Origin: Chrysochromulina tobinii
Lineage: Eukaryota
Assembly: GCA_001275005.1 (NCBI GenBank)
Contig: JWZX01003214.1
Span: 1 to 49,115 of the forward strand
Direction: 5' to 3'
Length of the DNA stretch: 49,115 nt
The notes under the pieces were generated by a model. It was not told the origin of the DNA. It saw only the letters and a list, made by a program, of their open reading frames with translations, and did not search any database. Every line of letters starts with the position of its first letter. Position 1 is the stretch's first letter. A program made the translations under genes and the position numbers. This document shows, one piece after another, positions 1 to 46,020 of this stretch.

Positions 1-642
1 GACGGAGCTCACTTACCGGTCTCTAGGAATGTTCCGTAAGCAGGTTAACGGACCCCCACCGGGGGAATGACCCCCCTACCGCTCGCAAAGTCGATCGTCG
101 TGTAAGTTACAAACGTAACTACGTTACAGACGGTGTAACCACGCGGACCCAACGAGCATCGAGCAACGCCAAGTCCCGAAGAAGGAAGAACGCACGCGCG
201 ACGGCTGAGTTGGCGCGCTTCGCCTTCGGCCGGCCGCCGCGCCCCCGGCCGGCCGCGCGCCCCGCATTGAGTTCACGCCGCATGGGTTCGGTCCCCCGTA
301 CCCGCGCACGTACTACCTCAGTCGTGTCGTCGACCGTCGTACAGCCTGTTACTCCAATGCGGTCGAATGTTGTGTGCTCGGCTACTGTTGGCCCACCTTT
401 GGTTTCCTCTCTCCGCCCGTCCGCCTCCCGCCCTCTGCCCTCAGTCTCACGTTCTATGGTCTCCAAGGACTCAGCACGACTACTCGATTCTCTTCTCTCC
501 TTCCGCTCAATCCACAGCTCTCAGCTGCCCATCAACGCCCAGCGATCACGAACCAAATTTGGCTTCGTAAGGCCGTTACGTTCCACGCTGCGGAGCCGGA
601 TTGGGCAGGCCAGATTGGGGCCCGATTGGGGCCAGATTGGGG

Positions 643-2055: not shown

Positions 2056-2140
2056 CAAGTCAAGTCGAGTCAAGTCAAGTCAAGTCAAGTCAAGTCAAGT
2101 CAAGTCAAGTCAAGTCAAGTCAAGTCAAGTCAAGTCAAGT
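2056..2140. repeat. (CAAGT)n pentanucleotide microsatellite, about 17 units
   Basis: Near-perfect tandem array just upstream of the MYST start codon. Confidence 0.97.
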
Positions 2141-2729: not shown

Positions 2730-3956
2730 TCACTCGAAGATGGATTTGCCAATGAACTCCATCAAGACGGACGTGTTCGGCACGGCGCTGTCTGCCACCT
2801 CCTCGAAGTTTTCGAGAAAGGTGAGCATCTGCGCCGCAAGGCCATACAGAGCTCCGGCCTCCGCCTTGGTGATGGCATGCAGCATGGGGCCCACGGTCCG
2901 CTTGAGAACGTTCATCTCGTAGAGCAGGCTAGAGTTGTAGACGACCTCGGCTTCCCCGGCAAAGGGGTAGATGTTCTCGAGCTCGCCCTCGCGCACCGAC
3001 GCGTACTTTTTAAGGGTGTGAAGCGCCGAGTTGCCCCTGTGAAGGTAGTCCCGCGAGATGCGCCGAATGAGACGCACGTAGTCCTCCCGCGCGGTGGATC
3101 CGTCCATGAGTGTGAGCGGCGACAGGGGCGCGATGAACACGTTGAACTTGGACGCATCATCCACCTGGGCGGTCAGCGCGGGATTGAGGCAGAAGATACC
3201 CTCCATGATCAGCATGCCTCCAGGCGCCAGCTGCTTACGCCTCGTCTTGTACGGCTCGGGGGCTCCGATGACGAAGTTGAAGATGGGAGTGTCAACGGGC
3301 GTGCCTGTGAACAGCTTCTGGAGGTCGGCGTTCAGTTTGTCAACGTCGACCGCCAGCAGAGTCTCAAAGTTCAGGTTGCCATCCTTGTCTCGCGGATGGC
3401 GGGGGTCCTCTCGAGCCAAAAAGTAGTCGTCAGTGGAGAGGGTCTCCGGCTTGATTCCAGCGCACCTCAAATGCATCGAGAGCTTGGAACAAAAGGTGGT
3501 CTTGCCCGAGGACGAGGGCCCAGCGATCAGCACGAGGGAGAGTGGCGTCGGCGCATTCTTCGTCGCCTCGCGCTTCGCCTGGATCGCATGGGCAACGTCC
3601 ACGATTTGCCCGTCATGCCACGCCTCGGCGAGCAAGATGGTCTGCGTCGGGCCACCATCCTTCTTAATCTGTGCGTTGACGGAAGCAGCACTCTGGAGTT
3701 CGACCGCGGCTGCCCATCGCTTTCCAGTCTCAATCGCCTCTTCAACGGAGACTCTCTTTGCCCCTTTGCTCGAGCTCCCGTGTCTGGATCGCATTGGGCT
3801 CAGCTTTCCCTTGGATCGGGTGGGCGAATGACCAGGTGAGCTTTGCGGCGAATAAAACCCTTTCATGCGAGCGTAGGTACTGGCCGCCTGGGCCGCTGAC
3901 TCGTGCACGCTTTCATTCCACTGACTTGCAGTCTCACCGACGGTGAGGCGGTGCAT
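2730..3956 (-). CDS. udk: Uridine/nucleoside kinase (P-loop), bacterial-type, intronless
   Basis: Walker A LIAGPSSSGKTTF, LSTDDYF, NFETLLAVD, IMEGIFCLNP, RLIRRISRDYLHRG, VREGELENIYPF, C-terminal VPNTSVLMEFIG. Start placed at ATG 3956. Confidence 0.85.
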   Translation of the reverse strand: MHRLTVGETASQWNESVHESAAQAASTYARMKGFYSPQSSPGHSPTRSKGKLSPMRSRHGSSSKGAKRVSVEEAIETGKRWAAAVELQSAASVNAQIKKDGGPTQTILLAEAWHDGQIVDVAHAIQAKREATKNAPTPLSLVLIAGPSSSGKTTFCSKLSMHLRCAGIKPETLSTDDYFLAREDPRHPRDKDGNLNFETLLAVDVDKLNADLQKLFTGTPVDTPIFNFVIGAPEPYKTRRKQLAPGGMLIMEGIFCLNPALTAQVDDASKFNVFIAPLSPLTLMDGSTAREDYVRLIRRISRDYLHRGNSALHTLKKYASVREGELENIYPFAGEAEVVYNSSLLYEMNVLKRTVGPMLHAITKAEAGALYGLAAQMLTFLENFEEVADSAVPNTSVLMEFIGKSIFE

Positions 3957-4408
3957 GGTTTCGACGTCGATGCGTCGTCCGTCACGCACCGAGCGCCTCA
4001 CAAGCAAACATAGGAAGCTCTTAAGGCGCCGATGTAACGGTCTTAAACTCGAGGCAGTTTTGAGAAAAGGGGTGTATCGCGAACACACGCTTGCTTGCCG
4101 CGTGCTGCGCCATACAAAGTAAGGGGGAGTCAGCAGGGATGAGGCCAGGGGATGTACAATAGTAGAGGCATGAGGCAGCGGTCGAGGGGTCGACTCTACA
4201 AGTCTACATGTACCGTAGGTCTCTATGTAGCCTCTTTCTTCACTCAAGATAGGCTCGCGGCCGTTGCCACGCATCTAGGAAGACCTTGCGTGTGGTCGGC
4301 GACACGGGGCGCGCACAGCGACCGTCGCCAGGACGGCCGTTTTACATAGTAGCCGTCAGCGGGAATCTCAATTCATCAATCGGGGAATTACCCAGCAGAA
4401 TTACCCGA

Positions 4409-5170
4409 ATGAGGCACCAAAGGATTCTCGAGACTCTTCGCCAAGGATCGCGTGTGCTCATGCCCCAGCAAATGAGCAGCACGTCTCCAGCCGTGAGACA
4501 GAACGACGGCTACTGGAAGCAGAGCGATGCAGAGGAGCCTCTGATTCTGCGCGTTCCAAGTGGGTGGCAGGCGGCGAGGAATGGGGGCGAGCACAATGGC
4601 GAGGACGACTACTATGCGCTACGAAGCCTCTTGCAAGACTTTGAGGAGATCTTCATCGCCATGCATGGCCGCCGGCCGACGCCAACCGAGTGCGCCGCGG
4701 ACGCGAACTACCATGCACTCTACTTCCGGTATGCCGCCGCGAAGAAGGCGCGACAGCTGCAGAGCGCGACGGCGACTTTCCAGCCGATGGCTACGGACGC
4801 AGCCATGCAGGAGGAGAGCAGGCAGCAGCCCGCCCCAACGGGTGGCGTGCCGCACGAAGAGTACGATGCCGCCGATGCGTACGGGGCCGCCCATGCCTGG
4901 AGTGACATGTCAGTCGCGGACCAGCGCGGCTCTCGCCCGCTCGAGGCGACGACTGATTCGTTGTGGCGGCAGCTGCTCGGGTCCGGCAGTGCACTTGGGC
5001 AGAAGCGACCGCGTGCCGAACTCGAGGCCGCCGCGTTCCCCGCTCGCCTGCACACGCGCCCGCGCTCGTACGTGACCACGGCCTGCCAGACAGAGACCAC
5101 CGCAGAATTCCCGCCCCTAGTTCTGCTGCAGCCGGAAGGCCCATTCGCAGAAGGCGTCAGAGTAGATTGA
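4409..5170 (+). CDS. Hypothetical protein with Sld2/RecQ4-N-terminal-like (or FAM13A-like) helical domain
   Basis: Segment LRSLLQDFEEIFIAMHGRRPT...YHALYFRYAAAKK resembles the WERAF...GRRPS...LYREY motif of the RecQ4/Sld2 N-terminus. GC3-rich ORF. Confidence 0.55.
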   Translation: MRHQRILETLRQGSRVLMPQQMSSTSPAVRQNDGYWKQSDAEEPLILRVPSGWQAARNGGEHNGEDDYYALRSLLQDFEEIFIAMHGRRPTPTECAADANYHALYFRYAAAKKARQLQSATATFQPMATDAAMQEESRQQPAPTGGVPHEEYDAADAYGAAHAWSDMSVADQRGSRPLEATTDSLWRQLLGSGSALGQKRPRAELEAAAFPARLHTRPRSYVTTACQTETTAEFPPLVLLQPEGPFAEGVRVD

Positions 5171-5691
5171 TCGCGAGTGCATGTCATATCATCCCGGGGT
5201 GCAAATTGATGGCGATGAGCCGTGTATGTGTGCTGGCCGGTTTAGGCGTTCCGCGTTTAATTAGTCTTCTCTAGAGAGGCGGTGTAAAACTTGTTATTAA
5301 CCGACACTAGTTTGTCACTAGTACTGTGTCGAAGACCCCTTACCCAGTCGGCAGTCCCCGCGTCCAGTGTGACTCAGTGTGTCGCCCGGAGTGGGAGCGT
5401 GCGGAATTCCGAATACCACGCCACGGGGGTCGCGAGCGGGCCAAGAAGTAATTTAGTACATGCGGAGTAACGTTTAGTAACGTAAGGGCCAGGTCGGCCC
5501 TCAGGCTCAGTCGCTCCAGGCCCATCAACCAAACGCTCGGTGCGCGACTTCCCTCTCAGAGGCGGCCACGTGGTGTCGATTATGGTGTCGAAAGTCCTCG
5601 TACAGTCTTGTGTCTCTCAGAAGGGGAAATATGTCGTCTGACAACGTTTTACCGCCTATTTATGGCGCGTTGCACTTTTCGCAATCAAACA

Positions 5692-5770
5692 CTGCGTCCT
5701 CCACGTTGTGTCTCCACGGGACCTGTGGTCGTGCGTCTTGCCGAGATGGCCATTTAACGTGAACGTGAAC
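5692..5770 (+). repeat. 79-bp dispersed element, copy 2, ending in (GTGAAC)2
   Basis: 73/79 identity to the reverse complement of 2139-2217. Ends about 110 bp upstream of the DnaJ ATG. Confidence 0.92.
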
Positions 5771-5882
5771 ATGCGTGAACGTCACGTGAACGTTTCGCAA
5801 TCAAGCGATGCGGAATCGAGAGGGGCACGCGTTCTTGAATACCAAGTGCGGCCGGCACAGAAGGCGAGTCCCGAGGCCGCGC

Positions 5883-8800
5883 ATGGCGACGCTGACCAGG
5901 CATGACGACCCGAGCGAGTCGGCGGCGGCGGCCACCACTAGCGCGCATCCGGCCTCGCAGCAGCAGCAGCCCCGATTTGAGGTGCCCGAGTTCGAGATGT
6001 TCTCCACCCGCCGGCCGCGCAATCTACTCGCCGGGATCTCATCGGGTGCCAAGTCGGCGATCAAGGGCGCAGTGAGCGGTATGGTTGGGCTGTTCGCCGC
6101 ACCCATTGTCGGCGGCAAGGAGAATGGCGTCCCCGGCTTCTTCGCCGGCTTGGCGACGGGCATTGTAGGTGCGGTGGCATTGCCGATGACAGGCGCGGCC
6201 GTGGCCACGTTGCAAATCGGGCGCGGTCTCGTGAACACGGCAGAATCCGTCTTCGAGTCGGCGAACGGCAAGGACTGGGATGAGGAGAAGCGCGTGTGGT
6301 TTGAGTACAACCTGCAGGTGGAGGCGGAGAAGGTGCGCGCACTTGACGAGTTTGCTTCCGAGGACGGCAGCAGATCTGCTCGCACGGGCGTGAATGGCAC
6401 AGGCGGGGTTGGGAGCGCGAGCGGGGCTGGGAGCGCGAGCGGCGCCGGCGCTGGCGCCTCCTCGGGTGGGTACTCCTCGGGTGGGCCCTCCGGGCGCTCG
6501 CCCAGCGACACGGCGTACTATGACTTGCTTGGCGTCCGATCGGATGCATCGACGGATGAGATCAAGAAAGCGTACTACAAGCGCGCTCTCAAGCTGCACC
6601 CGGACAAGAACCCGGGGGATAAGACGAAGGCGGAGGAGTTTCAGAAGGTCTCCGAGGCGTACCAGGTCCTCGCCGACGCGACGATGCGCTCACGTTACGA
6701 CTCACACGGCGCTGCTTCCCTTGACGTCAACTGGATGGACGCGGGCATGTTCTTCACGATGCTCTTTGGATCGGAGCGTTTCGAGCCGTACATAGGCAAG
6801 CGCCTTGATTGTGTCTGAGTGCGCCTGATCGCGTCTGTCTGAGTGCGTCCGCCTGATCGCGTCTGATCGCGCCTGAACGCGTCTGACTGCGTCTGATTGC
6901 GTCTGATTGCGTTGCATGCGAGCCGCACATAGGTAAGCTCGCGCTCGCGACGGCGGCCTCGATGGAGGGGACCCTCTCGATGCGTCGCCTCGCCATCAAG
7001 CAGCAGAAGCGAGAGGTGGAGCTCGCACTGCGTCTCTCGGAGCTCTGCGACAGCGCTGGCGCCAATGGCGGCGCGAGTGGCGTCAGCGGTGGGACCACTG
7101 GCGCCTCCGTCGCTGCCAGTGCTGAAGGCGGTGCCGCCGCCCCCGCTATAGTCGATGGCAGCGCGGCCGCGGCCGGCGCAGACGACCGCTGGGCTAGTCG
7201 TATCCGCGCAGAGGCGAAAGAGCTTGCGTCGGTCTCGTTTGGCGAGTGCTTGCTCTTCACGGTGGCGGAGCTCTACGGCTGCCGAGCTGACGAATACCTC
7301 GGCCTGCACACGAGCGTACGCATGCCCTCGCATAGCCCTCGCATGCCCTCAGATGGCCCTCGGATGGTCCTCTAATGACCTCTAATGACCTCTAATGACC
7401 TCTCCTCGGATGGCCCTCGGATGGCCCTCTAATGACCTCTAATGACCTCTCCTCGGATGGCCCTCGGATGGCCCTCTAATGACCTCTAATGACCTCGGAT
7501 CGGATGGCCCTCGGATGGCCCTCTAATGACCTCTAATGACCTCGGATGGCCCTCGGATGGCCCCATTGATTGCCTCCCTCATCAGGTGGGCTGATTGCCC
7601 CTCGCATGCCCTCGGAGTGCCTCGGAGTGCCCTTGAGTGTCCTTGAGTGCCCTCGGAGTGCCCTTCAGTGCCTTTTAAGTGCCTTGAGTGCCTCTACGCG
7701 ACCGTCAATTTGATTGTCAATGTGCCCTCCGTGTGTGCCCTCCCTGTGTGCAGCTCCTTGGTGTCGAGGGCCACCTTGCCGCCATCCGGATGTTTCGCAT
7801 CTCTTTGCAGAACCATTCCGCGGCCGCCAGCGCCGGCATCCGAGCGGCGGGCGCCGCCGTGCGCACCTTCAGCACCGTCAAGGAGATCGCCGATCAGCAG
7901 CGGAAGGAGGCGGCCGAAAGCGCCGCAGCGGGAGGCGAGACGAAGCCGCAAGGCGACCCGCTTGGATCCCTCACGCCTGCTCAGGTGATGACGTCATTGC
8001 CATGATTGCCACTGATTGCCTCCGATGGCCTCCCTCATCGGGCCTGATGTGCTCGGATCCCTCACGCCTGCTCAGCTCAAGGCGACTCAAGAGAACCTAC
8101 CGGTCTTCCTCGAAGCGATCTGGCATGTGTCCGTGGTCGACATCGAGCGTACGCTCACCGCGGTGACCCACAAGGTGAGCCGCCCCGACCTGATTGGTCT
8201 CTTCATTGAGTGAGCCGCCCCGACCTGATTGGTCTCTTCATTGATCTCTTCATTGATCTCGGGGGAACTCCGAAGGCACGCATGCATGCGCTCACCACGG
8301 CGCCGATCCGAATGCACGCATGCATGCGCTCACCACGGCGCCGAGCACGCCCTGGGCGAGCAGCTGCTGATAGCGACGCATGCATGCGCTCACCACGGCG
8401 TGCCGACCGCTCCCCGCGCATGCATGCGCTCACCACGGCGTGCCGACCGCCCCCCGCGCAGTTGTGTCGCGACCACTCCGTCGATGAGAGCACACGGCTG
8501 CAGCGGGCACACGCCCTCCGGCGGATCGGTGCGATCTTCATGGAGGAGGCCCTCGCGAAGGGAGGCTCCAAGGTGGCCTGATTGACCTTGATTGACCTTG
8601 ATTGCCCTGGAGGAGGCGCTCGCTAAGGGAGGCTCCAAGGTGGCCTGATTGACCTTGATTGACCTTGATTGCCCTGGAGGAGGCGCTCGCTAAGGGAGGC
8701 TCCAAGGTGGCCTGATTGACCTTGATTGCCCTTGATTGCTGTGGAGGAGGCGCTCGCTAAGGGAGGCTCCAAGGTGGCCTGATTGACCTTGATTGCCCTT

Positions 8801-9326
8801 GATTGCCCTTGATTGCCACTGAGTGCCCCTGATTGCCCCTGATGCCAAGGGCCCCAAGGGGCGTGTCGGATGGCCTCTGATGGGCCACTTCGATTGTCTC
8901 TCTGATGGCCTCTGATGACCTCCCTCGTCCACCCTCCTCTCGCAGGACCCAACCAAGAAGGTGACCGACATGGTCAACATGATTGCACCGCAATTCCAAT
9001 CCGCCGCACAGCAAGCGCGCGAGAATGCTGGCGGCGCTGGCGCAGCCAGTGCACGCAGGGCAGCCGCAGGGCCAGCCGCACCCGCCGACCCGCCTCGCCA
9101 ATACGAGCTGGATGAGCTTCGTAAGCTACCGGTACGTGAGCTCAAGGTGCTGCTGCGCGCTCGGCATGCAAGTGCTCACCACGGCGCCCTCCTCTCCCCA
9201 CAGGTACGTGAGCTCAAGGTGTTGCTGCGCGCTCACGGCGTGTCGGAGGTCGAGGTGGTCGAGAAGGAGGAGCTTGTGCAGGTCATTTATGCCCTCCAGC
9301 AGAGCGCGATCAAGCCCGAGGGCTGA
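5883..9326 (+). CDS. DnaJ-domain protein with DnaJ-X domain; exons 5883-6795, 6933-7315, 7754-7984, 8076-8174, 8462-8572, 8946-9131, 9204-9326
   Basis: J domain YYDLLGV...IKKAYYKRALKLHPDKNP...FQKVSEAYQVL, then FFTMLFGSERFEPYIGKL and WHVSVVDIERTL (DnaJ-X). All predicted splices keep the frame. Confidence 0.9.
6796..6932 (+). other. GC-AG intron flanked by a duplicated exon junction
   Basis: CGAGCCGTACATAG|GCAAGC recurs as CGAGCCGCACATAG|GTAAGC. Filler of CTGATCGCGT/CTGATTGCGT repeats. Splicing gives EPYIG-KLAL. Confidence 0.8.
7316..7753 (+). other. Repeat-filled intron with internal CCTCATCAG|GT at 7585/7586
   Basis: CCTCTAATGA, CCTCGGATGG and CCTTGAGTGC arrays. A phase-0 splice joins GLHTS to LLGVEGH. 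Confidence 0.7.
7985..8075 (+). other. Intron whose acceptor is a copy of the upstream exon end
   Basis: GGATCCCTCACGCCTGCTCAG occurs immediately before the GT and again as the intron 3' end. Confidence 0.88.
8175..8461 (+). other. Intron with duplicated 35-bp 5' end and repeated GCATGCATGCGCTCACCACGGCG cassettes
   Basis: GTGAGCCGCCCCGACCTGATTGGTCTCTTCATTGA twice, then four cassette copies. Splice joins THK to LCRDHSV. Confidence 0.85.
8573..8945 (+). other. Intron containing three extra copies of the exon end plus donor
   Basis: TGGAGGAGGC(C/G)CTCGC(G/T)AAGGGAGGCTCCAAG|GTGGCCTGATTGACCTTGATTG present four times in 8541-8800. Confidence 0.85.
9132..9203 (+). other. 72-nt in-frame, stop-free intron with 32-bp exon duplication
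   Basis: GGTACGTGAGCTCAAGGTG(C/T)TGCTGCGCGCTC duplicated around GGCATGCAAGTGCTCACCACGGCGCCCTCCTCTCCCCACAG. Confidence 0.85.
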
Positions 9327-10511: not shown

Positions 10512-10713
10512 GGCTGGCTGTGAGGGTCGGCTCCTCTGAAAACAATACGGTACTCGATTCTTTAAAGCCGACGGCATTTAATTGTTCGCTCACGCCGGCG
10601 CTTTCCGCGTTTCCATAGTTTCAACGGCTGCGAAGAAGACGTACAGTAGAAACTAGTCCGCGTGGCACGGTTGTCAAGGCGAGCGGCGGGCGGCGCGCCG
10701 CATCTTGCGCGAC

Positions 10714-12654: not shown

Positions 12655-13176
12655 GTTACTTCATACTACCTCGCCCTTGAGAGCCCTCTCGTCGGGAGCG
12701 CGCAGGGAACGGTCGCGACGGTCGCAGAGAGCAGACCAGAGTCGAGAGTATGCTGGAGAGTATGGAGACTTGGAGAGACCACACGACGGTGAAAGACGGT
12801 GAGTGCTGAGATCGAGGTACACGACGTGTCAGAACATCTACATTCAGCAGAACATATTGACTCCACCCGCGCGGGTTAAATGCCCTGCTTCTTTTTAACG
12901 AAACTTGCCATCTTGCAACTCTCTGAGCGATGCCCGCCGATGGCGGATCTGGTGCATTGGTCGCCCCGGCCTCGTCGTTCGAGGTAGAACGGTACAGAGT
13001 CAGACGAGACATGCCACATCATGATGGAGTACGGTCCGGTGAGACAAAACAAACTTTTCTGGACTGGCGTGACCCAAATCTATCCCTCGGAGGCCCACGC
13101 CCTCAAACACCTTATCCAAGGTTCACAGTAGGTTCACAGCCTATGGTAAGTTCGACAGGGCCTCTCGTGGCGCCCC

Positions 13177-14181
13177 ATGTGCAAGGCCATCGGGCGCCTC
13201 GTACTCCTCTCAGCTGTCCTGTACGGCACGGACGCAGGCCGGCTGAGCCTGCATGCGTCGGCTGAGCAGGGGCTGGTGGAACCGCTCAAGGTTGCGATCA
13301 AGGGGCGTTACGATGAAGAGAGGGAGGAGCAGATCAAGCCGGACATCGATGGGCAGAACAAAAAGGGACGAGTGGCACTCCATCTAGCGGCTTGCAATTG
13401 GCGAGGCGATCTTGAGCCGGTGCGCGTGCTCCTGGAGCATGGCGCCGATCCAGACGCCCGTGATCGCGATGGCCTGGCGGCGCTGCACATCCTCGCCGGT
13501 GGGTGCAATGGTGGCGGCGCGGCTGCTGGGCGCTACGGCGGAGTGGAGGTGGCGCGATTGCTGCTCAAGCACGGCGCGGACCTGAATGCGACGATAGAGG
13601 CCGACGGGCTCACGCCGCTGCACATTGCTGCGGCTGGCGGCAAGGCCTTCCGTTTGCTCGAGTGGCTCGCCAGCAAGGGTGCCCACGTGAACGCGATCGA
13701 CCCTCTGATGACCTCTGATGACCTCTGATGACCTCTGATGACCTCTGATGACCTCTGATGACCTCTGACGACATCAGGTGCCCACGTGAACGCGATGGAC
13801 CGCTCGGGGGCCACGCCCCTGCACGCAGCGGTGCGGGCCGGGTTGCCTCGCGAGGCGCGGGCACTGCTGGAGGCGGGCGCCGACCCGAGCGTCCCCGACG
13901 CCGAGGGCCGCCTCGCAGCCGATGCACTCGTTGGGCGAGACTCGACCGCCGCACTCCTTCGAGCGGATCTTGCGGATTTTGCAGCGATCCGTGCGAACTT
14001 TCTCAAGGCGAAGGCGGAGCGCGCGGCCGCCAAGGCCGCAGCCAAGGTCGCCGCCAAGGTGGGCGATAAGGCGGACGAGAAGGCTGACGAGAACGTGGGC
14101 AATAAGGCGGACGAGAAGGCTGACGAGAAGGTGGACGTGACAGTGGATGCTGCGGCGGCGGCTGAGAGGGTGGAGCTGTGA
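13177..14181 (+). CDS. Ankyrin-repeat protein with signal peptide and C-terminal RVEL; intron 13679-13777
   Basis: Ankyrin motifs GRVALHLAA, VRVLLEHGADPDARD, GLTPLHIAA, GATPLHAAV. Hydrophobic N-terminus. Confidence 0.9.
13679..13777 (+). other. Intron whose donor is a copy of the downstream exon start
   Basis: GGTGCCCACGTGAACGCGAT duplicated. (CCTCTGATGA)n filler, ending ACATCAG. Confidence 0.9.
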
Positions 14182-14648
14182 ACTCAGCAGGGTGGAGCTG
14201 TGAACTCAGTTGGGTAGCTACTCCAGTGGGGACTCTCACACCGAGAGCCACGCCGAGGCTCGCATAGCACGCAATCGATCGGACTGTGCGCGCGAAAGCA
14301 AGCGGAAGCGCCGACGTGTAGGTCGAGCGCATTCGGTAATATAGGATACGAATTACGATACAGACGTGTAGGTAGGCGAAAGTAGTAAGAAAGTAGTAGC
14401 GGTTGCGTCGGGTCGGAACCGGCGAGCCGAGTTATAATGATAGTAGGCGCGCGAGCCCGGCGACCCCGGCAAACCACTTTTAATGATATGTGTGGAGGAG
14501 CACGGTATGTATGCCGAGTTCGTGTGAGAGCTGAGACGACTCGATCGGCAACTATCGGCGAGGAACCGGCGCGCGGGCACAGATACCGGCTCAGAAAAAA
14601 AAGGAGAGAGAGCTCGCTCTCTCCTCCCGCACGCAGCCTGCTCACACC

Positions 14649-17037: not shown

Positions 17038-17619
17038 GGTGCTCGCTCCCTCGACAGCGCCCCTCCATGGCGAGATGCCGCGCGCGACGTGCGTCCACTA
17101 CCCTCTGACACAGCACGCCTCCTCGCTGCGAGCTCCACTGGACCTCACTGGCTGGCTTTGCTCCTCAAACTGCTTGGATCTACCATTGTGTTGCATGCAT
17201 GTGCCATTGTTTACGCATAAATTAAATGATGAGGGCGGTTCGTAGTCCGGTCCAAGCCACGGCGTTTCGGGGACTCAGTGGAGCGTCCCCGCGCGGTAGC
17301 AAGGATACCGTTCGGCCGCGACCGCGCCGGAGCGACCCGCCCGCGAGCTCCGCGGGCCGGGGGCGCCGCGGCCCCCCGCACGGCGCAGGGCAGGTGGAGG
17401 TGCCCAGGTGGGTCCAGGTGCGTCAGGTCACACGGGTGCGAGCGCCCCGCGACGGGAGTCCCGCGCCGCCCCGGCCGGGCAACGCGACGGCCCGACGGAA
17501 CTCGACCAACTGTAATTACGCTAGCCGGTAGATATAACGTGGGGCGATCCGCGGTCCGAGTCAAGTCTAGCTATATAGCACTACCGTATCGTACGACGAT
17601 CGACGTGTCGCGTAGAGCT

Positions 17620-19671: not shown

Positions 19672-22600
19672 GGTGCTGGGCGTTGTCGCGAGCGGTGGCG
19701 GAGGCTTAGCGTCGTGGCTGGGGGTGTGAACGGGAGTGTGAATAGCGTCGAGGCGGGGGGTGAGCGGCGGCACGCGTGCGTCGTCTGTCGCGAGGCCGAA
19801 GACAGAGAGCCCAAAGTCAGTGAGCTTGATGTGGCCGTCTTGATGGATCAGCACGTTATCGGGCTTGATGTCGCGATGGACTACCCGGAGGGTCGAGTGC
19901 AGGTACTCAAGCGCGAGCGCGATCTCGGCCACGTACCTGATGAGGGAGGTCATCAGTGGTCATCCGAGGTCATCAGTGGTCATCAGTGGTCATCAGTGGT
20001 CATCAGTGGTCATCAGTGGTCATCCGAGGTCGTCCGAGGTCATCCGAGGTCATCAGTGGTCATCAGTGATCATCAGTAGTCATCAGAGGTCATCAGAGGT
20101 CATCCGAGGTCGTCCGAGGTCATCAGTGGTCATCAGTGGTCATCCGAGCCACATACTGGCGCGCATGCGACTCGTCCAAGAAGCCGACCGCCTTAAGGAG
20201 CGAGAGCAGGTCGCCACCGTTGACGAATTCCATCACCAAATATAGATGCTCGCGCGACGCGAAGGAGTAGTAGAGCTTGACGACATACGGATGCTCGGCG
20301 GTCGCGAGGATGTCACGCTCCGCCTTGATTCGGTGCACCTGGTTCTTTCGGCGCATGTCCGTCTTACGCAACACTTTGATGGCGTACCTGTGGGGACGCG
20401 GGGCGCCGTGGTGAGCGTGTGCATGCAAGTCAAACTTGTGCAGGCGTCGGGGCGCCGTGGTGAGCGTGTGTGCATGCATGTCACGCTTGTGCAGGCGTCG
20501 GCGTAGATCGCGTACAGGTCTCGCGTGGTCTTCATCGCCGCGAGGACCACATGACCATACGCGCCGCGGGAGATGGGCTTGAGGATCTCGAAGGACGAGA
20601 TGTTGTGCGACTTGGGGCGGCTGCGCTGCCGGCGCGCGCTGGCCGTCGACGAGACGCTGCTAGGGATGAGGATGCTGTGAACACCTCCGGAGGCTGTGAA
20701 CTGGCCCACCTCCGTCGACGAGACGCTGCTAGGGATGAGCACCGCCACCTCCGTCTCCGGCAGGGGGAAAGGCGGCAGGGGGGATGGCGGCAGAGGGGAT
20801 GGCGGCAGTGCAGCGGGCAGCGGCTCAGCCGGCGCTTTGGCCAGCGAGTCCGCCTGAGGCATCGGGTCCATCGGCAGCGCCGTCGCGGGCGCCGTCGCGG
20901 TCGGCGTCGTCCGCCGCATCGAAAGTTGCCATGCTGCTGCCGGATTCGATCCCCGACGCGCCGTCGTTCCTGCTTGCGGCCGCCTCGTGCCGCTCGATCT
21001 CGTGCCGCTCGAGATCGGGAGATCGCTCGAGATCGGAAGGAGCAGCGGCGAGCGCGGGCTACTGTCCAGCTCGCGCTCGACACAGCGCGCGCACGGGCTA
21101 CTGTCGCCCGCGCTGTCGTGAGCGCTCTCGCGCGGCGCGGCGGTGCCGATCTCGCCGATCTCGCCCGCGCTGTCGTGAGCGCTCCGCGTGAGCGAGAGGG
21201 GCAGGGCACTGAGTGGTTCGGTCATCACGTGCCGCGGCGGCGAGGCACCGCGTGGCTCGGCCATCATCGGCGCGGCGATCAGCCTGATCGAGGTTGGCAA
21301 GTTGCAGGCTCGAAGTTCCAAATCGGGCGATGCGCCCGTCACGGCGCCGATGTGCTCGACACGGCGCTCGACCACAGGCGGCTCGGCAGGCGGCGCCGGC
21401 GCCGTGACAGGCGCCACGGTGGCGGCGGGCGGTGGCGGCGGGGCGTCGTCGTGGGCATGAGCGTCCTCGTGGGCGTGGGCGTCGTCTTGGGCGTCCGCGA
21501 GGAAGGGTGCGACGTGCGAGAGCATGCGGATGAGCTGTCGCGCGTACGAAGCGGTCGTGCCGTCGGCAAGGCGCTGCGAGGCGCTGAGCAGCTCCCGCGC
21601 GTACGCGAGCATGCGCGAGCACGTCGTGGGCGAGGTGGTCAGGTGGGCATGCGCGCACACGCCTTCGAGGGCGGCGAGGATGGGCGCCGTGTCGGGCACC
21701 CCAATGGGCGCCGTGTCGGGCGGCGGGTGGGCGGCCGTTGTGGTTTCGGCCGAGCGGAGCGCCGAGCTGAGCGCCTGATCTCGGCGCTTAATCTCGGACG
21801 AGATGTGCCTGCGCAGCCTCTTGAGCGAGTGCTCGACGTGGAAGACGACCACGTCGGTCATGCAGAGCTTGGAGTGCTCGGCCATCAAAGCGATCTCGAC
21901 CGTGCACTCGCAGATGCGGCAGAGCAGCTTGGGCCGCGGCGGCGGCGGCAGCGACGAGCAGGGCGAGGGGCATAGGGGGCGGGGGGCACAGGGGCGGGGG
22001 GTACAGGGGCGGGAGCATGGACGTCGAGCCGAGCGACGAGGGCGCCGTCGTGAGCGACGAGGGCGCCGTCGTGAGCGAAGCGGGCGCCGTCGTGAGCAGT
22101 GCCGTCGCCTCGGCCGCCTCGGCCGCGACCGTTGTACTCCGCTCCACGGGCACAGAGAGCGCCGTGTCGGGCGTAGAGAGCGCCGTGTCGGGCACAGAGA
22201 GCGTCGTGTCGGGCACAGAGAGCGCGCCGACCGACGCGAAGGCGCCGTGCCGGGCACCCTCGGCGCAAAAAGCATGCGGCCCACGCGCGGCGGTCTCGTC
22301 ATCGGGGTTCGTCAGCGTCGAGGCGAGGGGTCGAGATCGATCGAGATCAGAGCCCGGGAGGGATGGATCGCCGGCGTGCGCGCCGTCGTGAGCGCCGACT
22401 TGCACGCCGTCGTGGCGGCTGTGAATGTGAATGTGCGGCGTGCCGTCCTGTGAACTGCTCGCCTGTGAACCACTCGCCTGTGAACGGCTCTCCGCCGCCA
22501 CGGTCGCTTCCCTATGCGACTGATGCACCTGTGAACCAGATGGGGCGCCGTGTCGGGCAGCGGCGGGCGCGCCCGCGAGCTTGGTGCTCATCACGGCGCC

Positions 22601-25570: not shown

Positions 25571-28517
25571 ATGCCGGCCGAGGTGACCGCGCCCAGCCTG
25601 CTGCGCCAGCTGGGCCAGTTGGCTGCTCCGACGGCCAGCTCGCCTTCGAATAAGGGCTCCAAGCTCAAGCGTCAGCGCGTGGGCGATGGTGGCGCCGCCG
25701 GCTTCCTGCGCGAGCTCGGCCAGCTCATCACCAAGATCTCCGCGACGGGCGTGACGGTCGAGGAGCTCGCACCGCCGCTACGCCTCGTCGTCGCGCTTGC
25801 GACGCTCTCCAACGTGTCCAGCTGGTGGCCGGCCTCCTCGGCGCAGACCTTTGAGGGGCCCCTTGACGCGGCGCGCCGGCTGCTCTCGGCGCTGCTGCCC
25901 GTCACGGGCCCGCTCGACTTCTTCGACCACACGGCGGTGCTGCTCGGCGCGTTCGGTCAGCTCGGCGCGTTCCGCGCCGAGGCGATGCACTGGCTCGTGC
26001 TCGCGCATGAGGCCCTAGGCTGCTGGTACGCCCTTCATCCCGGCCGAACGGCCCTGCTCTACCACCTGCGCGACCCGCAGCTGACGGCGGACGCGGGGTT
26101 CGCACTCTTTCGGATCGGGAGCTGCTGTGCCGCGCGGCGCGGAGGGGCGGGCGGCGCGTGGCTCGAGCGCCACCATCTCAAGATGGTGTACGCCGTGCTG
26201 CGCGAGCGAGAGAGGACCCAACTGCCGCCGCTTTGGGTGCTTCGAGCCATCTTGACCCATCAACTCCCGAAGCTCACGGACCCGAATGACGCGCGGCTCA
26301 CCGGTGTGTTCAGCATGTCGCCGTACCACGAGCTCGCGTGCGTTGATTACGTAGCCGCCGACGAGCTCACCGCACTCATCGCGTGCATGCGTAACGACAC
26401 GTTTACGACCGCTGCTGACCGTCAGTGGCGCGAGCGGCGCGAAGCAGCTGCCTATCTCCGAGGCACGGGCGGCACGCACGCGCACGCGGCGCTCGCGGCG
26501 CAAAAGCAGCAGGCGGCCGCCGCCCTCGCGCGTGCGTCCGACACCGGTGCCGCTGACGGCAACGCGAACGGCAACGGCCTTGCCGGAAGCGCCGTCCCGG
26601 GCGTCTTCGGCCCGCTGGTGTGTGAGCGATTTCTTTCAGAGCGCTTATCCTCCCTCGAAGCGGCGCTATGGTGCGCCGAGTGCCGCTGAGTGCCGCTGAG
26701 TGCCGCTGATCGCCGCTGAGTGCCGCTGAGTGCCGCCGAGTGCCGCCGAGTGCCGCTGAGTGCCGCTGAGTGCCACGGATCGCCGCTGAGTGCCACGGAT
26801 TGCATCCCTCATCAGGCTGCAGCAATGTGCGGTGGTGCTGCAGCTGGCGTCGCCGATGGAGGTGTGCGCGCGACCCGAGCTGCGACTCTCCGCGCGCCTC
26901 CTCTGGCATAGCCCCGCCGCCAAGGTGCTCCAGGACCGGGCGGACGCCGCCTTCGAGGCTGGCATGTCCGTGGGCGCCTCCGACGCCGATCGACGGTTGG
27001 CCCTCGTGCAAGCGGCACGGCTCGCCCGAGCTGTGAATGCCACCGGCGGCGCGGCGCAGCGATGGCTGGCGGAGGGGTGCCTCCACGTGGATAGTTCGTG
27101 CTGGCGCGCCGTGCTGCTGCTCGTGGCCCACCTACCGTTGCTCGAGTGGGGGCAGGTGAAACCCGCCCTCGACGGCGCGTCACGCTTCGCCCAAGAGCTG
27201 CATGCAATCGCGCCTCGCGGCGAGGACCAGCAGATCAGCTGCATGCTCTTCGTCGTCCTCGGCGAGCTGCTCGAGCATTGGCTCACGACGTTGCGTGTGC
27301 GGGGCACCATCCAGCCCGGCCGGTGCGTCCCAATCTCCGAGGGAGATTTGCTATGGAGCTCGGGCTCGGAGCTCGAGACGTTACGCACGCTGGTCGCGTG
27401 GGTGGATCTGCAGGCCCAGCTCGCACTGCAGGCCGCCCCTCGCTCGACCGCCCTTCACCTCGCCGTGATGGGCTTCTTCGCCAAGGTGGGCAGGCTGCAC
27501 ACACACTGCTCCGTCCCCTTTATGGTCGTGCCCTCCTACCCCGTCGCCCAGCGCTGCTTGCTCCACTCGTGCCCACTCGTCGTCTCGCGCCTCTGCGGCT
27601 TGCTTGCGGACTACCGCAAGGAGATCGAGGGGCTCAAGGCCACCTACGCCTCCTCTCCGCTGCCTCGGAACGCCCGAGCGGGGGCGAATGGTCTACAGGT
27701 GTGAATGACCTGTGAATGATTGTGAATGACTGTGTGAATTGCTGCTGGCTGGGGTCTGATTGCCACGGAGTGCGTCTGATGGCCTCGCGCGTGTGCGCGT
27801 GAATCGAGCACCACAGGACATCCCGCGCTTCAACTCGTTCGTGCTCGATGCATGCAATGCCCTGTGGCGCAATCGAGCCTTCGTCGAGTGCCCGAGCGAC
27901 GCGGCGCCCAACACGGCGGCGCAGGTCGACGAGCAGCTCAGCTGCCTGCGCCTGCCCAAGACGACGCTCACGCAGCTGCATGCGGCTCTGGAAGCCGTAC
28001 TCGTCCCTCAGGTGAGTCTCGTCAATTGCCTGTGAGACCTCTGAGTACCACTGATACTGAGTGCGACCGATGGCCACAGATGGCCACTGAGTGCCTCTGA
28101 TGGCCACTGATGGCCACTGAATGCCTCTGATGGCCACTGATGACCGTACTCTTCCCACAGGAGGGCGAGGCGCCGTCCGACGATCAGGTCTCATGGGGCC
28201 ATGGAGGGCGCACCACGTTCGAGTTGCGCCGCACCCTCTCCATCACACACGGCGCCGCGTGGCAGGGGCACGTTCGCACCTTTTTAAACTCCGGGGCCGT
28301 CGCCGCCCATGTAGACGATCGTGCGGCCGCCAACGGCTCGCCCACTTCTGTACCGAAGCGCCCCACCGTACACGCCCTCGAGAACCCGAATCTGAAGGCG
28401 CAATACCTCGATGAGCTCCGGCGTGAGGGGTATGTGGGGCTGTACGACTTTCTGCATGCATTCATCTCGTCGCTCGCGCGCCGGCAGCAGCGGCAGGGGA
28501 TGCAGCAGGCGGCCTGA
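25571..28517 (+). CDS. CENPI: Centromere protein I (CENP-I/Mis6/Ctf3)-like; introns 26671-26815, 27699-27816, 28012-28160
   Basis: C-terminal motifs VSRLCGLLADYR, FNSFVLDACNALWRNRAF, LSITH and YLDELRREGYVGLYDFL resemble the Mis6/CENP-I C-terminus. Splices keep the frame. Confidence 0.7.
26671..26815 (+). other. Repeat-filled intron (GAGTGCCGCT)n ending CCCTCATCAG
   Basis: TG|GT...CAG|G gives AALW-LQQC. Confidence 0.85.
28012..28160 (+). mobile_element. Introner-like intron, GTGAGTCTCGTCAATTGCCT family, copy 3 (17-bp diverged duplication)
   Basis: CCGTACTCGTCCCTCAG versus CCGTACTCTTCCCACAG. GATGGCCACT filler. Confidence 0.8.
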
Positions 28518-28994
28518 CCGGACAATGGCCGCCGAAGGGCTGCCTGCATGACCTCGGTAGCAGGCGGCGCGGCGGTCGTAGGGGAGGGAGCTGCGCCGCG
28601 CTCTTGCGGTCTCGGCAAGGGGCGATCGGGGCTGGCAAGATACATGGACGCGACGAGAAGACGTGATCTCCGTCGTGTACGCGTGTCTGGACCCGTCTCT
28701 CTGTCGGTGGCGCTAGTCGCAGTTAAGTCGCGTCCCCGGTTGTTACGCGCGATATCAGAGTGTTTTCGAACAAGACACCGGGCGACCCGGGTGTAGGTCT
28801 GTAGGAGCACTGTTTCGGGATAGAATAAAAATACGCAGATCGATCACGCCATTATTTTGCAGTTGAGTTCGCAGAGTTGGGGGCGCCGAGAAGCGCCGTG
28901 AGCCCCGTGACCGTGTACCCGGGTCCGTGATTCTCGGAGCGATACGGAGTGACGCCGCCCAGACGAGGCCGAGCGCGGAGCGATCCCCCCACGA

Positions 28995-31280: not shown

Positions 31281-31697
31281 ACTGTTCCCATATGCGGGTG
31301 TGTACTCTTTCTCGTTTTCTCAAGGTAATTCTAGTGCAGAATAACGGTACGCTATAGCGTATACGGGCTATAGGTTTAGGTAGACGACTATGGTCTATGC
31401 GATGGCCGATGCACGCCTCTGTAACTGTGATGGGGAAGGAGTGACGCAGCGCAGCGTGACCCGTTCCCGTAGCGGCACGCCGCCCCGCTCGGCTGTGATG
31501 GCCTACGAATCCTACGGGAGCCCCACCGCACCAACGCCCTACTCGACGCCCTGCCACGTGCCAGGCCCACCAGCACACCAGCGATGGCCGATGCACATAT
31601 GAGACCAAAAAAGGTGCTCTCTCCAAGCACCCTTTAACTCCAAGCACCCTTTAACAGACGCAGCACGCGCACACACGCATCACAGATGCAACTGTTC

Positions 31698-37600: not shown

Positions 37601-37901
37601 CGGCGGCCGGCGGCCTGACGTGGACAAAGCTGCTCGCATAAAAACCTTTGCGCCACTCGTCGATTGTAATGCAGCCATCCGAGTCGAGGTCGAGCTCGCT
37701 CATCAGGGTTGCGAAAACCACGTCATCGTAGCCTTGCTTTTGCAATGCGCTCTTCAACTCATCGCAAGAGATGGTCTGGTCGCTGTCGACGTCGACCTCC
37801 TTGAAGATCCTCGTCGGGTCTTGCCACTGGAGCGTCTCCGGCGTGCGCACCTCGACACCATCGACAGGATTTGGCGCCACCTTCGTGACGGAGCCGCCCA
37901 T
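31698..37901 (-). CDS. Large EF-hand + HET-like + RNI-type LRR (NLRC3-like) protein; introns 36175-36242, 35928-36022, 35780-35848, 35379-35452, 32576-32651, 32170-32273
   Basis: EF loops DVDSDQTISCDE and DLDSDGCITIDE. FVSHWWG, YWVCAYANNQW, SRIWCGYE motifs. Dozens of LxxLDLSxNxLGxxG repeats. Six GT-AG introns that keep the frame. Confidence 0.88.
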
Positions 37902-38562
37902 CGAGGGAAGGAAGGTCCCAAGGTCCCAAGAACCCGCTTGTTCCCAGTGAAATAACGAAGAGGGGTTTCGTCAATGGATCTGCGTCGGAGGCCGACATTA
38001 TGTCGTAATAACCCCTTACACGTAAGATATTCCTGTTTTCATATTCACACCTGCTGCTGTTCACTCACGCTCGACTAGACGATCTTGAGAGCGTCCAAGC
38101 GTCGAATGGCGCAGCCTCAGCCGGCCACGGCGATGCCCACGAGGCAGATCAGGCCGGGTGCGCTCGGACTATTGACGCCACCGCAACGCGGCCTGGCACT
38201 CGCTATCATCCAGGCAGATCGGTGTGGCCGTGGTGGTGATGACCTCGAGGACCTTGCGAAGCCTAATCGCTTTGCGCACATGGACACCACGACGAGCACG
38301 CAACTATCGCAGCGAATCGGGATGCTCTCACACTGGGCGCCGGCGAATGGGTCTGTACCATCGTACGGGAGGTGACGTGGTCGTAACGGTCAGGTGTTCC
38401 GATTGGGTGTTCCGATTTAGACGGCACTCGCACCTATCCCACCGCCGAGCCCCGAGGTGTTCCGTATATATTCGATATAATTGGAGATGACAGTCCTGTT
38501 TCGTCCGTTTACTATAGATGTCCATGGACCATGGCTCACTCACGGCTAAAGGTAGGTGCACC

Positions 38563-39831: not shown

Positions 39832-40126
39832 CTCGGCCTCCTAGGGCCGCGTTTTATCGACGACACCGGAAATGCGGGTCTCAGGAGATCTCAGTTTGAC
39901 GTAACCCATCGAGCGCTCTAGGCGTAGAAAAGTGTGTGTGAAGAACGTTCAATCAAGTTTCGGGGGATTTCGCGGCATTAAATTGCGCGTTGAGGGCCGG
40001 TGTGCAAGCAGCTATCCCAATCCTTGGACTCCCGACCGTCACCGTGTGTGCGTTCTGTACGTCAGCGCTACGTCAGCGCACCGTGCCTTCCTTCCCGGTG
40101 GCTGCGGGCGGCAGATCTGAGCACCG

Positions 40127-41515: not shown

Positions 41516-42065
41516 GCGCGCAGGCCGCAGCCGCGCACGCGCTCGCGGGCGTGGCGCGTGGGGCCGCGCGCGGTTGCGGCGACCGTTGCGGGCGTCGGTT
41601 AAATATGAAGATAACATCCAGGATGACATGCCGGCCGAAAAAAGCTGCAGTGTGCAGAGGCAGCGCGTGTGCCGGGCCGAGCTCGTCCTCGAGGATAAGG
41701 TCATTCCCATCTCTCACACGCCTCATTTAAAAACTCGTGCTCTGGGCCTGGAGCAGCATCCGCGTGAAACTCGAGGCCTGAAAGGGTGGAGGGTGCGCCG
41801 AGACCTCGAGCCGAGACCGGGTTCCTCCGAGATAGTAATTACTTCTAATATTTATTATGTTAGATAGTATAATAGTAGTAAGGGCAGTATAATAGTAGTC
41901 AAGTAAATAATAATAAGTGGTACGACAAGCAACAGACAACCAAGAAGCATACTTGTAAGAAATCGGGGGGGGGGTAAAGAATCCTATTCATACCGTAGCG
42001 AATGAGTGCGAATGTCAGAAACACGAGCAGAAATCATGAAAGCAGGGTGCTCAACATCAAGCACC

Positions 42066-44654: not shown

Positions 44655-46020
44655 GGGACAGTGCGGGTGCCGTCCTCAAGGCACTCTTCCAAAGCCCTCC
44701 GCTGGGCAACTACTCGTACGACGCTTTCACCGGCAACTCGCCGACTGTCGGTGGTGAGTGTGGTAGAAAAGTTGTCTTTTGTCTCACCGGAGGGACCGCG
44801 TACGCTAAGAGAATGACGGCGGGTAACCGCGTAACCTTTCTGGGCGGCTAGCGCGAACCGAACTGTCTCCCCCTTGGGGCAGGGGGCGGTTCGTTGATCC
44901 CCCCTAAGAGGAAACCCCACCGAAGCATATAACGGCCAAATAGTTACGGCCCGGGGTTCACCTCATCCTCAACATGATGACAGCACTCCGGGTGACACCT
45001 TTCGTAGTTTCGTATGACCTTACGCCGCCGCCCCCCCTCACGAACGCGATGTCGAACCCGCCCCAGCGCCAGCCCCCTTTTCCGTAGGGGAAGTTCGGGA
45101 CGTAGAACACCTAACACCACGGCGCACAGGGAGGATTTTCCAATGCGTTTGCCGTTTCACGGCCCGCCCCAAGGTGGGGGGGGCGTCGCGCCGTAGGGCG
45201 ACGGCATACGATACGTCGTTGTGGCCCTCGTCCGTGGTCCGGACTCCGGACCGACCCCTTACCGACCCCTTACACTGAGTTCAAAATCAGGTGGTGGGGA
45301 TAGTGTGTGAATCCAGAAAGAATACCCTCCCCTACCCCTTTGGGTCAAGTTACCCGCGGGGGGCCGGCCGTGCCCGCCCCCTGTGCCGGCTGTGCCTGTG
45401 GCGTGTGGGGGGCGGTCCGGCGGTGGGGATTTTGGTTTTTGCGATTTTCTATCACATCCTAGGATTGTCTCACATATCCTATGTACGTACAGGGCTGCGC
45501 CGTCCGAGGGCCAATGCCGAGGGCAAGGCGCTCGTCGTGTTCAACATTGAGCGCAACGTGCAGCTCGCCATCGGACGACCTCGCGTCGAGGGCCGTTTCA
45601 ACGATCGTGAGTTCGTGAAACTGCGCCAGTTTGCGTTGGAGGGCGCGACGGCGCGTGAAACATGAGTCATGACCATGAGTGGAGACGGGAAGCAACGGTC
45701 GAATGACCCGGAATCGCAATCAGACAGCAGCCGGTACATCGATGGGGTCCACGCACACCGGCTTTTGTGGGACAACAAACGCGCAAGAAGGTTGATGCGC
45801 TTGCAAATTCACTTGCAAATCAGACGCACCGCGCACCAGATCCGTCGTCGATCGTCGATCGTCGATCGTGCGGTCAGGCCGTATACGCACTCCGCACTGC
45901 GTCCCCGGTAAACACACCAAGATCGATGCCCCGAGGGCAGGCTCGCTCAAACAAATGCGACATCGCCTCCCGACCGATGTGCGATGAACCGATGTCTCCG
46001 CGCGGCTATCTCCGGCGCGC

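What the first reader, a model, noticed from the sequence alone, without database searches (positions are those of the whole stretch)
5270..5670. Mirror-DNA patches: intergenic segments that read like complemented-but-not-reversed sequence
Seen: in 5271-5665 I count CTAG+GTAC+ACGT = 10 versus GATC+CATG+TGCA = 1, and in 1-520 8 versus 2. The base-by-base complement reads like ordinary DNA (e.g. GATCTCTCCGCCACATTTTGAACAATAATTGGCTGTGATCAAACAGTGATCATGAC). By eye, similar patches lie at about 4140-4390, 10520-10670, 12690-12870, 14220-14600, 17240-17615, 28660-28830, 31320-31600, 38370-38520, 39840-39990, 41770-42000 and 44700-45270. All are intergenic; boundaries are approximate. No standard polymerase mechanism yields reversed non-complemented copies. 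The options are an assembly or processing artefact, a distinctive intergenic mutational bias, or something new.
Basis: partly seen in the sequence, partly recalled or inferred. Interest (0 to 1): 0.75.

Follow-up and report, generated by a model that had tools for sequence, protein, structure and literature searches.

The report
Gene-free spacer DNA, not mirror DNA
The odd patches are real stretches between genes of a single-celled alga, where the letter patterns typical of its genes fade to nearly random, so they only look back-to-front; the two longest also lack GCA/GCT words, likely the trace of a local mutation bias.

Summary
The counts are right (10 vs 1; 8 vs 2), and the patches are a real class: an unsupervised HMM finds them, 68-96% intergenic against 18% of the window. 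The DNA is genuine. Contigs built from reads span the main patch, and diverged strains from another study bridge two other patches. So it is not an assembly artefact. It is also not mirror DNA. A mirrored host model fits worse than plain random sequence (-14 to -32 bits/kb; a true mirror would give +25 to +48). ApT is not depleted (0.92; mirror predicts 0.48). Mirrored frames show no coding signal, and the host's common repeats are not mirrored (956 copies vs 14). The host is a Chrysochromulina haptophyte whose genes avoid TpA strongly (0.49). Twelve short spacer cores are indistinguishable from random. The two longest spacers overshoot: GCA/GCT words number 76 against 130 expected (z -4.7). 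C-to-T loss at GCW, the mirror image of CpG decay, fits them best, but other rules fit the other patch sets better, strain variants are uninformative, and no matching methylase is listed for the genus. Mostly ordinary, with one small open lead.

The parts
5270..5670 (.). Main patch: core of the spacer between the 4409-5170 gene (+) and a DnaJ gene (+). TA 1.09, AT 0.60, AC 1.31, GC 0.79; GCW 9 vs 27 expected
   Evidence: inside one contig 3900-5727 with 3 differences in runs X1 and X12, diverged pieces in X14 and X17
1..520 (.). Right part of the longest patch, which runs about 750 nt beyond the window start (seen in L003). It lies between two convergent genes, the nearer one a MYST acetyltransferase (728-2056, -). 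GCW 61 vs 92
44700..45490 (.). Second-longest patch; GCW 23 vs 57. Holds a piece at 45153-45204 that is multi-copy in related strains, a 27-nt repeat shared in ordinary polarity with 13035-13060, and a tandem 76-nt unit at 45273-45348
4140..4390 (.). Weak patch between divergent genes; X14 has 82 nt replaced by 27 at 4145-4228
10520..10670 (.). Short spacer patch; the only one where the mirrored model clearly beats random at both orders while the direct model does not (+25, +38 bits/kb over 151 nt)
12690..12870 (.). Listed patch that fits the ordinary host model as well as the mirrored one; built of short tandem duplications
14220..14600 (.). TA-rich spacer between convergent genes; no GCW deficit (26 vs 26.5)
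17240..17615 (.). GC-rich spacer between convergent genes; TA 2.04, GCW 21 vs 28
28660..28830 (.). Spacer patch between convergent genes; GCW 4 vs 12
31320..31600 (.). TA-rich spacer; no GCW deficit (25 vs 20)
38370..38520 (.). Spacer patch, GCW 3 vs 10; bridged by contigs of X14 and X15 with 1 difference each
39840..39990 (.). Spacer patch between divergent genes; bridged by X14 (38944-40338) and X15 (39802-40636) with substitutions and short indels
41770..42000 (.). AT-rich, low-complexity spacer patch (43% GC, TA 1.57)

Best explanation
The patches are the cores of intergenic spacers in a Chrysochromulina genome, where the strong short-word biases of its genes and introns fade to near-random composition, and the longest spacers have additionally lost GCA/GCT words, likely through a local context-dependent mutation of cytosine. 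Shown: the DNA is real and varies between strains; genes and introns avoid TpA (0.49, 0.39) and favour CA/TG and GC; spacer cores do not; TpA rises with distance from gene ends (0.51 at 0-50 nt, 1.19 beyond 300 nt, not monotonically). Against that background unbiased DNA looks reversed, and picking patches by eye adds overshoot. Inferred: the cores lie beyond the UTRs, are untranscribed and are free of coding or RNA-level constraint. Inferred, weaker: the extra deficit comes from C-to-T change at G-C-(A/T) in old spacer or repeat-derived DNA. That lowers GC and raises AC/GT, the mirror image of ordinary CpG decay, which is why the complement looks natural.
For: Mirrored host model -14 to -32 bits/kb against random, host on itself +25 to +48; trinucleotide chi2 is 209 for random, 581 for mirror, 1075 for direct. 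Windows where mirror beats random: 34 of 2272, against 43-52 in shuffles. Twelve short spacer cores chosen from gene ends: all six word classes within |z|<2 of shuffles. Two longest spacers: GCW 76 vs 130, z -4.7. In the 13 patches WGCW is 0.44 of expectation, WGCS 0.79, SGCS 1.21; the rest of the DNA has WGCW and WCGW both at 1.57, so a mirror would keep 1.57. Products SGTW and WGTW are raised (1.19, 1.29), WGTS is not (1.03). G[C>T]W is first of 720 single rules on DNA more than 300 nt from gene ends (chi2 103 to 34) and gains 25.5 bits leave-one-out there. Read-derived contigs and other strains carry the patches.
Against: No RNA-holding run was listed, so 'untranscribed' is inferred. I set gene ends by eye from ORFs and Pfam hits after seeing the sequence. 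With dinucleotides kept, the extra GCW deficit in unbiased sets is marginal (16 and 19 of 300 shuffles reach it). Strain variants: 3 of 19 intergenic C/T sites are G[C/T]W (about 2 expected by my estimate) and 6 of 19 are CpG. Only 57 kb could be analysed.
Confidence: 0.7

Rival explanations
1. Pure neutrality plus selection by eye: all patches are unconstrained spacer DNA, and the GCW deficit in the two long spacers is the idiosyncratic make-up of two old repeat-derived inserts, with no general mutation rule.
For: Short spacer cores are random-like. A model trained on unbiased cores gains nothing leave-one-out (-2.4 bits/kb). The 44700 patch holds multi-copy pieces. The deficit in the unbiased set rests on two spacers.
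Against: The two long spacers show the deficit separately (61 vs 92; 23 vs 57), as do single-copy 5270 (9 vs 27), 28660 and 38370. No Pfam hit of a mobile element in 20 ORFs over the patches.
Confidence: 0.4
2. Native GpC (GCW) cytosine methylation marks silent spacer or repeat DNA, and deamination has eroded those sites. This is a specific form of the mutation clause in the best explanation.
For: Graded loss WGCW < WGCS < SGCS and the product pattern fit G[C>T]W. CA not preceded by G is only mildly low (0.87) and CT not preceded by G is normal (1.0). Non-CG methylation occurs in another protist, Naegleria (PMC12344493, passages).
Against: C. tobinii is listed with DNMT5, DNMT6 and DNMT2 only (PMC12344493 supplement row); that paper treats DNMT2 and DNMT6 as RNA methylases and places haptophyte 5mC in gene-body linkers. 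Strain variants show no excess. The rule is not unique.
Confidence: 0.15
3. RIP-like CpA-to-TpA mutation of repeats.
For: TA/AT 208:151 against 730:1642, and (CA+TG)/(AC+GT) 361:538 against 5985:4672, which are the classic RIP indices (recalled). TpA is RIP's main product (PMC4943192, passages).
Against: GCT/AGC is as depleted as GCA, and CA after A, C or T is only 0.87-0.92. The rule gains 2.7 bits on the deepest set against 25.5. The patches mostly stay 51-70% GC. No DNMT4/RID is listed for C. tobinii. The 5270 patch is single-copy.
Confidence: 0.06
4. True mirror DNA: reversed, non-complemented copies made in vivo from host or foreign DNA by an unknown parallel-copying route.
For: The complements of the three long patches have a generic natural signature (CG 0.7-0.8, TA 0.6-0.84, CA 1.2-1.3, read off). 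One 22-nt GA-rich mirror pair links 12737-12758 and 14516-14537 (E 0.002). A foreign source could not be searched for.
Against: The mirrored host model fits worse than random. No coding signal in mirrored frames: combined z 2.2 against 2.9 for direct frames, both driven by low-complexity 41770, while coding controls give z 9.5-18. 103 frequent host 10-mers have 956 copies against 14 mirror images. Mirrored and as-given queries give equally weak hits (5 vs 4 blastn, 17 vs 22 tblastx), and one as-given hit is a 27-nt ordinary-polarity repeat. Edges are fuzzy, and no whole-patch presence/absence difference was seen in the strain contigs shown. I know of no such polymerase (recalled).
Confidence: 0.02
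5. Assembly or gap-filling artefact that wrote segments backwards.
For: Such an artefact was reported for another genome in this scan (e1-7588550, unchecked).
Against: The window has no N. Contigs from raw reads of X1 and X12 span 3900-5727 with 3 differences. Two other assemblies match at 99.9% over 1-15.6 kb. Strains of a separate 2025 study bridge two patches with natural substitutions and indels.
Confidence: 0.01

Closest known systems
CpG decay by 5mC deamination (CG down, CA/TG up); described in PMC12695648, passage seen
   Same: A regional loss of one C-containing word with gain of its C-to-T products would have the same logic.
   Different: Here CpG is not lost (1.24; WCGW 1.48). The lost word is GCA/GCT, the mirror image. 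Methylation at that word is untested.
Repeat-induced point mutation of Pezizomycotina fungi (PMC4943192, passages)
   Same: Blocks with raised TpA and lowered CpA/TpG next to normal genes.
   Different: Not AT-rich blocks, not confined to repeats, GCT lost as much as GCA, and no RID listed for the genus.
[quoted passage not shown]
   Same: Same algal group; gives genes and spacers different chromatin and mutation settings; CpG is not depleted.
   Different: It is CG methylation in gene bodies. It does not predict a GCW deficit in spacers.
Backwards-written block beside an assembly gap (scan note e1-7588550, unchecked)
   Same: Flipped palindromic word counts draw the eye in the same way.
   Different: That block held an intact gene once reversed and sat at a gap. 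These patches hold no mirrored gene, have no gap and are read-supported.

Membership tests
Mirror (reversed, non-complemented) copy of host DNA | Mirrored host Markov model fits as well as the host model fits host DNA | tested here: not met
   -14 to -32 bits/kb against +25 to +48; 34 windows against 43-52 in shuffles
Mirror (reversed, non-complemented) copy of host DNA | Reversed patch matches a source sequence, gene or repeat | tested here: inconclusive
   No convincing match in 57 kb; the whole genome is not held and nt could not be searched with reversed sequence
Assembly artefact | Reads or independent assemblies do not span the junctions | tested here: not met
   Spanned in X1 and X12, L001-L004, X14 and X15
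RIP | Raised TpA/ApT and lowered (CpA+TpG)/(ApC+GpT) | tested here: met
RIP | CpA-specific C-to-T loss regardless of the 5' base | tested here: not met
   HCA 0.87-0.92 but GCA 0.58-0.66 and GCT 0.58-0.62; weak leave-one-out gain on the deepest set
RIP | Targets duplicated DNA and needs RID/DNMT4 | tested here: not met
   5270 patch single-copy; DNMT4 = 0 for C. tobinii in a published table, not searched by me
Methylation-driven word decay (GCW form) | Substrate words low and C-to-T products high | tested here: met
   WGCW 0.44 and 0.36; SGTW 1.19 and 1.43; WGTW 1.29 and 1.47; not unique among rules
Methylation-driven word decay (GCW form) | Excess of segregating C/T variants at the target word | tested here: inconclusive
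   3 of 19 intergenic C/T sites
Methylation-driven word decay (GCW form) | 5mC present at the target and an enzyme with that specificity | not testable with these tools
   No methylome; the published DNMT list shows no obvious candidate
AID/APOBEC-type WRC deamination (motif recalled) | Loss of WAC as well as WGC, with WGT products | tested here: not met
   AAC 1.07 and TAC 1.4 are not low; WGTS 1.03 and 0.76

The most novel reading that the evidence does not exclude
Chrysochromulina methylates or otherwise modifies cytosine in GpC (GCW) context in silent intergenic and repeat-derived DNA, a native version of the GpC mark used artificially in chromatin footprinting, and its decay has written the mirror image of CpG depletion into the spacers. 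(Literal mirror copying from an unsampled source is not formally excluded, at about 0.02.)
Probability: 0.15. Interest if true: 0.7.

Novelty: new variant of a known kind. Interest (0 to 1): 0.24.

Why it matters
As it stands, it is a useful caution: in a genome whose genes avoid TpA strongly, plain spacer DNA looks reversed, and a given-versus-reversed likelihood test passes unless random sequence is the control. If the GCW deficit holds genome-wide and is due to methylation, it would be a native eukaryotic GpC mark, which my two searches on the theme (listings only) did not turn up, and it could be tested with one Nanopore or EM-seq run.

Tried and rejected
No whole genome is held, and the metagenome records could not be searched by handle. 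More host DNA was sought and mostly not found: the metagenome scan gave 4 loci on 2 contigs of this same place (adding 7.8 kb); viral contigs gave nothing usable in 4 scans (one search used the antisense ORF by mistake); genome contigs gave nothing. Rfam: 0 hits in the window. The two high-copy elements fold no better than shuffles. Pfam on 20 ORFs over the patches: one weak hit below cut-off. Phage blastn of 5200-5700: no match. One search's sliding scan was run on a wrongly joined sequence because the locus is reverse-oriented; only its alignments and the printed L004 sequence were used. In one search, 3 of 13 codon-training stretches were out of frame; the coding controls still scored z 9.5-18. 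Protein-like readings of complemented patches seen by eye did not survive shuffling. CHG/CWG, oxidative C-to-A and CpG rules fit poorly on the deepest set. Runs X18-X23 held next to none of the words and were not used. Huff and Zilberman 2014 could not be read. Searches for literature on mirror or parallel-copied DNA and on Chrysochromulina or haptophyte methylation listed nothing on this feature; listings only.

Full report
Context. The window is from a Chrysochromulina haptophyte: the best named relatives of its MYST acetyltransferase are from Prymnesium and Emiliania, and the 90% cluster of its closest hit holds a Chrysochromulina parva protein. It is gene-dense, with Pfam hits for 14 of 25 ORFs scanned and introns built of 10-bp repeats. 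No whole genome is held. Analysis covers the window plus 7.8 kb beyond its start from L003.

Observation. Over the 13 listed patches the two word sets total 51 vs 17, against 410 vs 656 window-wide. An unsupervised HMM, given no mirror prior, finds the same class in four of four runs (TA 1.2-1.4, CA 0.71-0.83, AC 1.19, GC 0.77-0.89), and 68-96% of its bases are intergenic against 18% of the window. So a distinct intergenic class exists. But 10 of 11 is only P=0.006 for unbiased sequence among about 124 such windows: it is surprising against the host's genes, not against random DNA.

Not an artefact. Thirteen runs hold 94% of the words of 4000-7000; these may be the source culture and are not independent. 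Two were laid: each has one contig over 3900-5727 with 3 differences. Two other assemblies match at 99.9%. Four runs of a separate study hold diverged copies: partial pieces of the 5270 patch, and contigs of X14 and X15 that bridge 38370-38520 and 39840-39990. These are contigs, not raw reads, but they come from other assemblies than the window's.

Not a mirror. (a) Dinucleotide odds in patches, rest, and mirrored rest: TA 1.23, 0.48, 1.11; AT 0.92, 1.11, 0.48; AG 0.89, 1.07, 1.17; GC 0.87, 1.20, 1.12. AT, AG and GC miss the mirror prediction. (b) Against an order-0 baseline the direct host model scores -46 to -63 bits/kb and the mirrored one -14 to -32; host DNA gains +25 to +48 on its own model. 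(c) Windows where it beats random are no commoner than in shuffles (34 of 2272 vs 43-52). (d) No mirrored coding signal: 2 of 13 patches reach p<0.05 mirrored and 4 of 13 as given, against controls at z 9.5-18 (3 of 13 training stretches were out of frame). (e) Frequent host 10-mers: 956 copies, 14 mirror images; mirrored and as-given BLAST give equally weak hits. Against this reading: one 22-nt GA-rich mirror pair between two patches (E 0.002), one 151-nt patch (10520) where the mirrored model does beat random, and the fact that a foreign source could not be searched.

What it is. I defined 16 intergenic intervals from gene ends, by eye. TA odds are 0.49 in coding DNA, 0.39 in introns, 0.51 within 50 nt of gene ends and 1.19 beyond 300 nt. 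The cores of the 12 shorter spacers wide enough to test match base shuffles in all six word classes (|z|<2). Most of the 'mirror' is therefore loss of gene-type bias, sharpened by choosing patches on these very words. That the cores are untranscribed is inferred; no RNA-holding run was listed.

Residual signal. The two longest spacers overshoot random: GCA/GCT words 76 vs 130, z -4.7; CA/TG z -3.5. In the 13 patches WGCW is 0.44 of expectation, WGCS 0.79, SGCS 1.21, while WCGW stays at host level (1.48 vs 1.57). By patch, 8 of 13 are below 0.75 of expected GCW, and 14220 and 31320 show no deficit. GpC decay would give the mirror image of CpG decay, which would explain the natural look of the complement (inference). 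Strain variants do not decide: I used 24 of 27 rows (three in the high-copy element dropped) and the 40 rows shown of 92; 3 of 19 intergenic C/T sites are G[C/T]W and 6 are CpG. Part of the 44700 patch is multi-copy in related strains, so repeat ancestry may contribute; no mobile-element Pfam hit was found in 20 ORFs.

Comparison. RIP indices are met but CpA specificity, repeat targeting and RID are not. A published table lists DNMT5, DNMT6 and DNMT2 for C. tobinii (PMC12344493, supplement rows); its text calls DNMT2 and DNMT6 RNA methylases and reports all-context methylation in Naegleria (passages). Haptophyte 5mC is described as linker methylation in gene bodies (PMC9246332 and bioRxiv 10.1101/2021.06.11.447926, passages). 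Amoebidium's CGC/GCG methylation is CG, not GpC (PMC11244446, passages). 6mA at ApT does not track ApT depletion (PMC12695648, passages). Viruses of this host carry methyltransferases (PMC12085832, passages), but nothing links them to these spacers. Supplements of the bioRxiv paper were not seen and may list further haptophyte DNMTs. Searches listed no paper on this feature (listings only).

Verdict. Real, heritable spacer DNA; not mirrored and not an artefact. Chiefly an absence of gene-type bias (confidence 0.7 for the overall reading), with an unexplained GCW deficit in long spacers that has about a 15% chance of marking native GpC methylation. Interest 0.24.

Noticed in passing
window 5692-5770 (+) and 2120-2217 (inverted copy): About 80-nt dispersed element upstream of genes. 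Summed contig depth reaches about 55,000 against 73 in X1, suggesting hundreds of copies, and it is also abundant in X14 and X17. No Rfam hit and no stable fold. Possibly a MITE- or SINE-like element.
   Followed up: partly
window 45273-45348: 76-nt unit that forms head-to-tail joints in X15-X17 at depths of 175-620 against about 5-10: a satellite or small circle, present once here. It has no GC or CG dinucleotide at about 50% G+C.
   Followed up: partly
window 44765-44791 and 13035-13060: 27-nt motif shared in inverted orientation between two spacers (93%, E 2.5e-4).
   Followed up: no
window 8541-8808: 67-nt unit repeated in tandem inside the DnaJ gene, apparently duplicating an exon end together with intron repeats.
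   Followed up: no
window 2056-2140: Long (CAAGT)n microsatellite abutting the 80-nt element upstream of the MYST gene.
   Followed up: no
window 43097-43120: Short telomere-like CCCTAA/CCCCAA run inside a probable intron that also duplicates about 25 nt of flanking exon sequence.
   Followed up: no
window 31760-37900 (-): Large LRR and EF-hand gene region with 174-, 186- and 192-nt internal duplications and lower GC, about 55-60%.
   Followed up: no
window 8175-8244: L001-L004 carry about one more 35-nt repeat unit here than the window (overlapping alignments).
   Followed up: no
introns across the window, e.g. 13703-13778, 19936-20160, 26660-26812: Introns of 10-bp tandem repeats with ApT odds of 1.56 and CpG of 0.78; the period matches one helical turn.
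   Followed up: no
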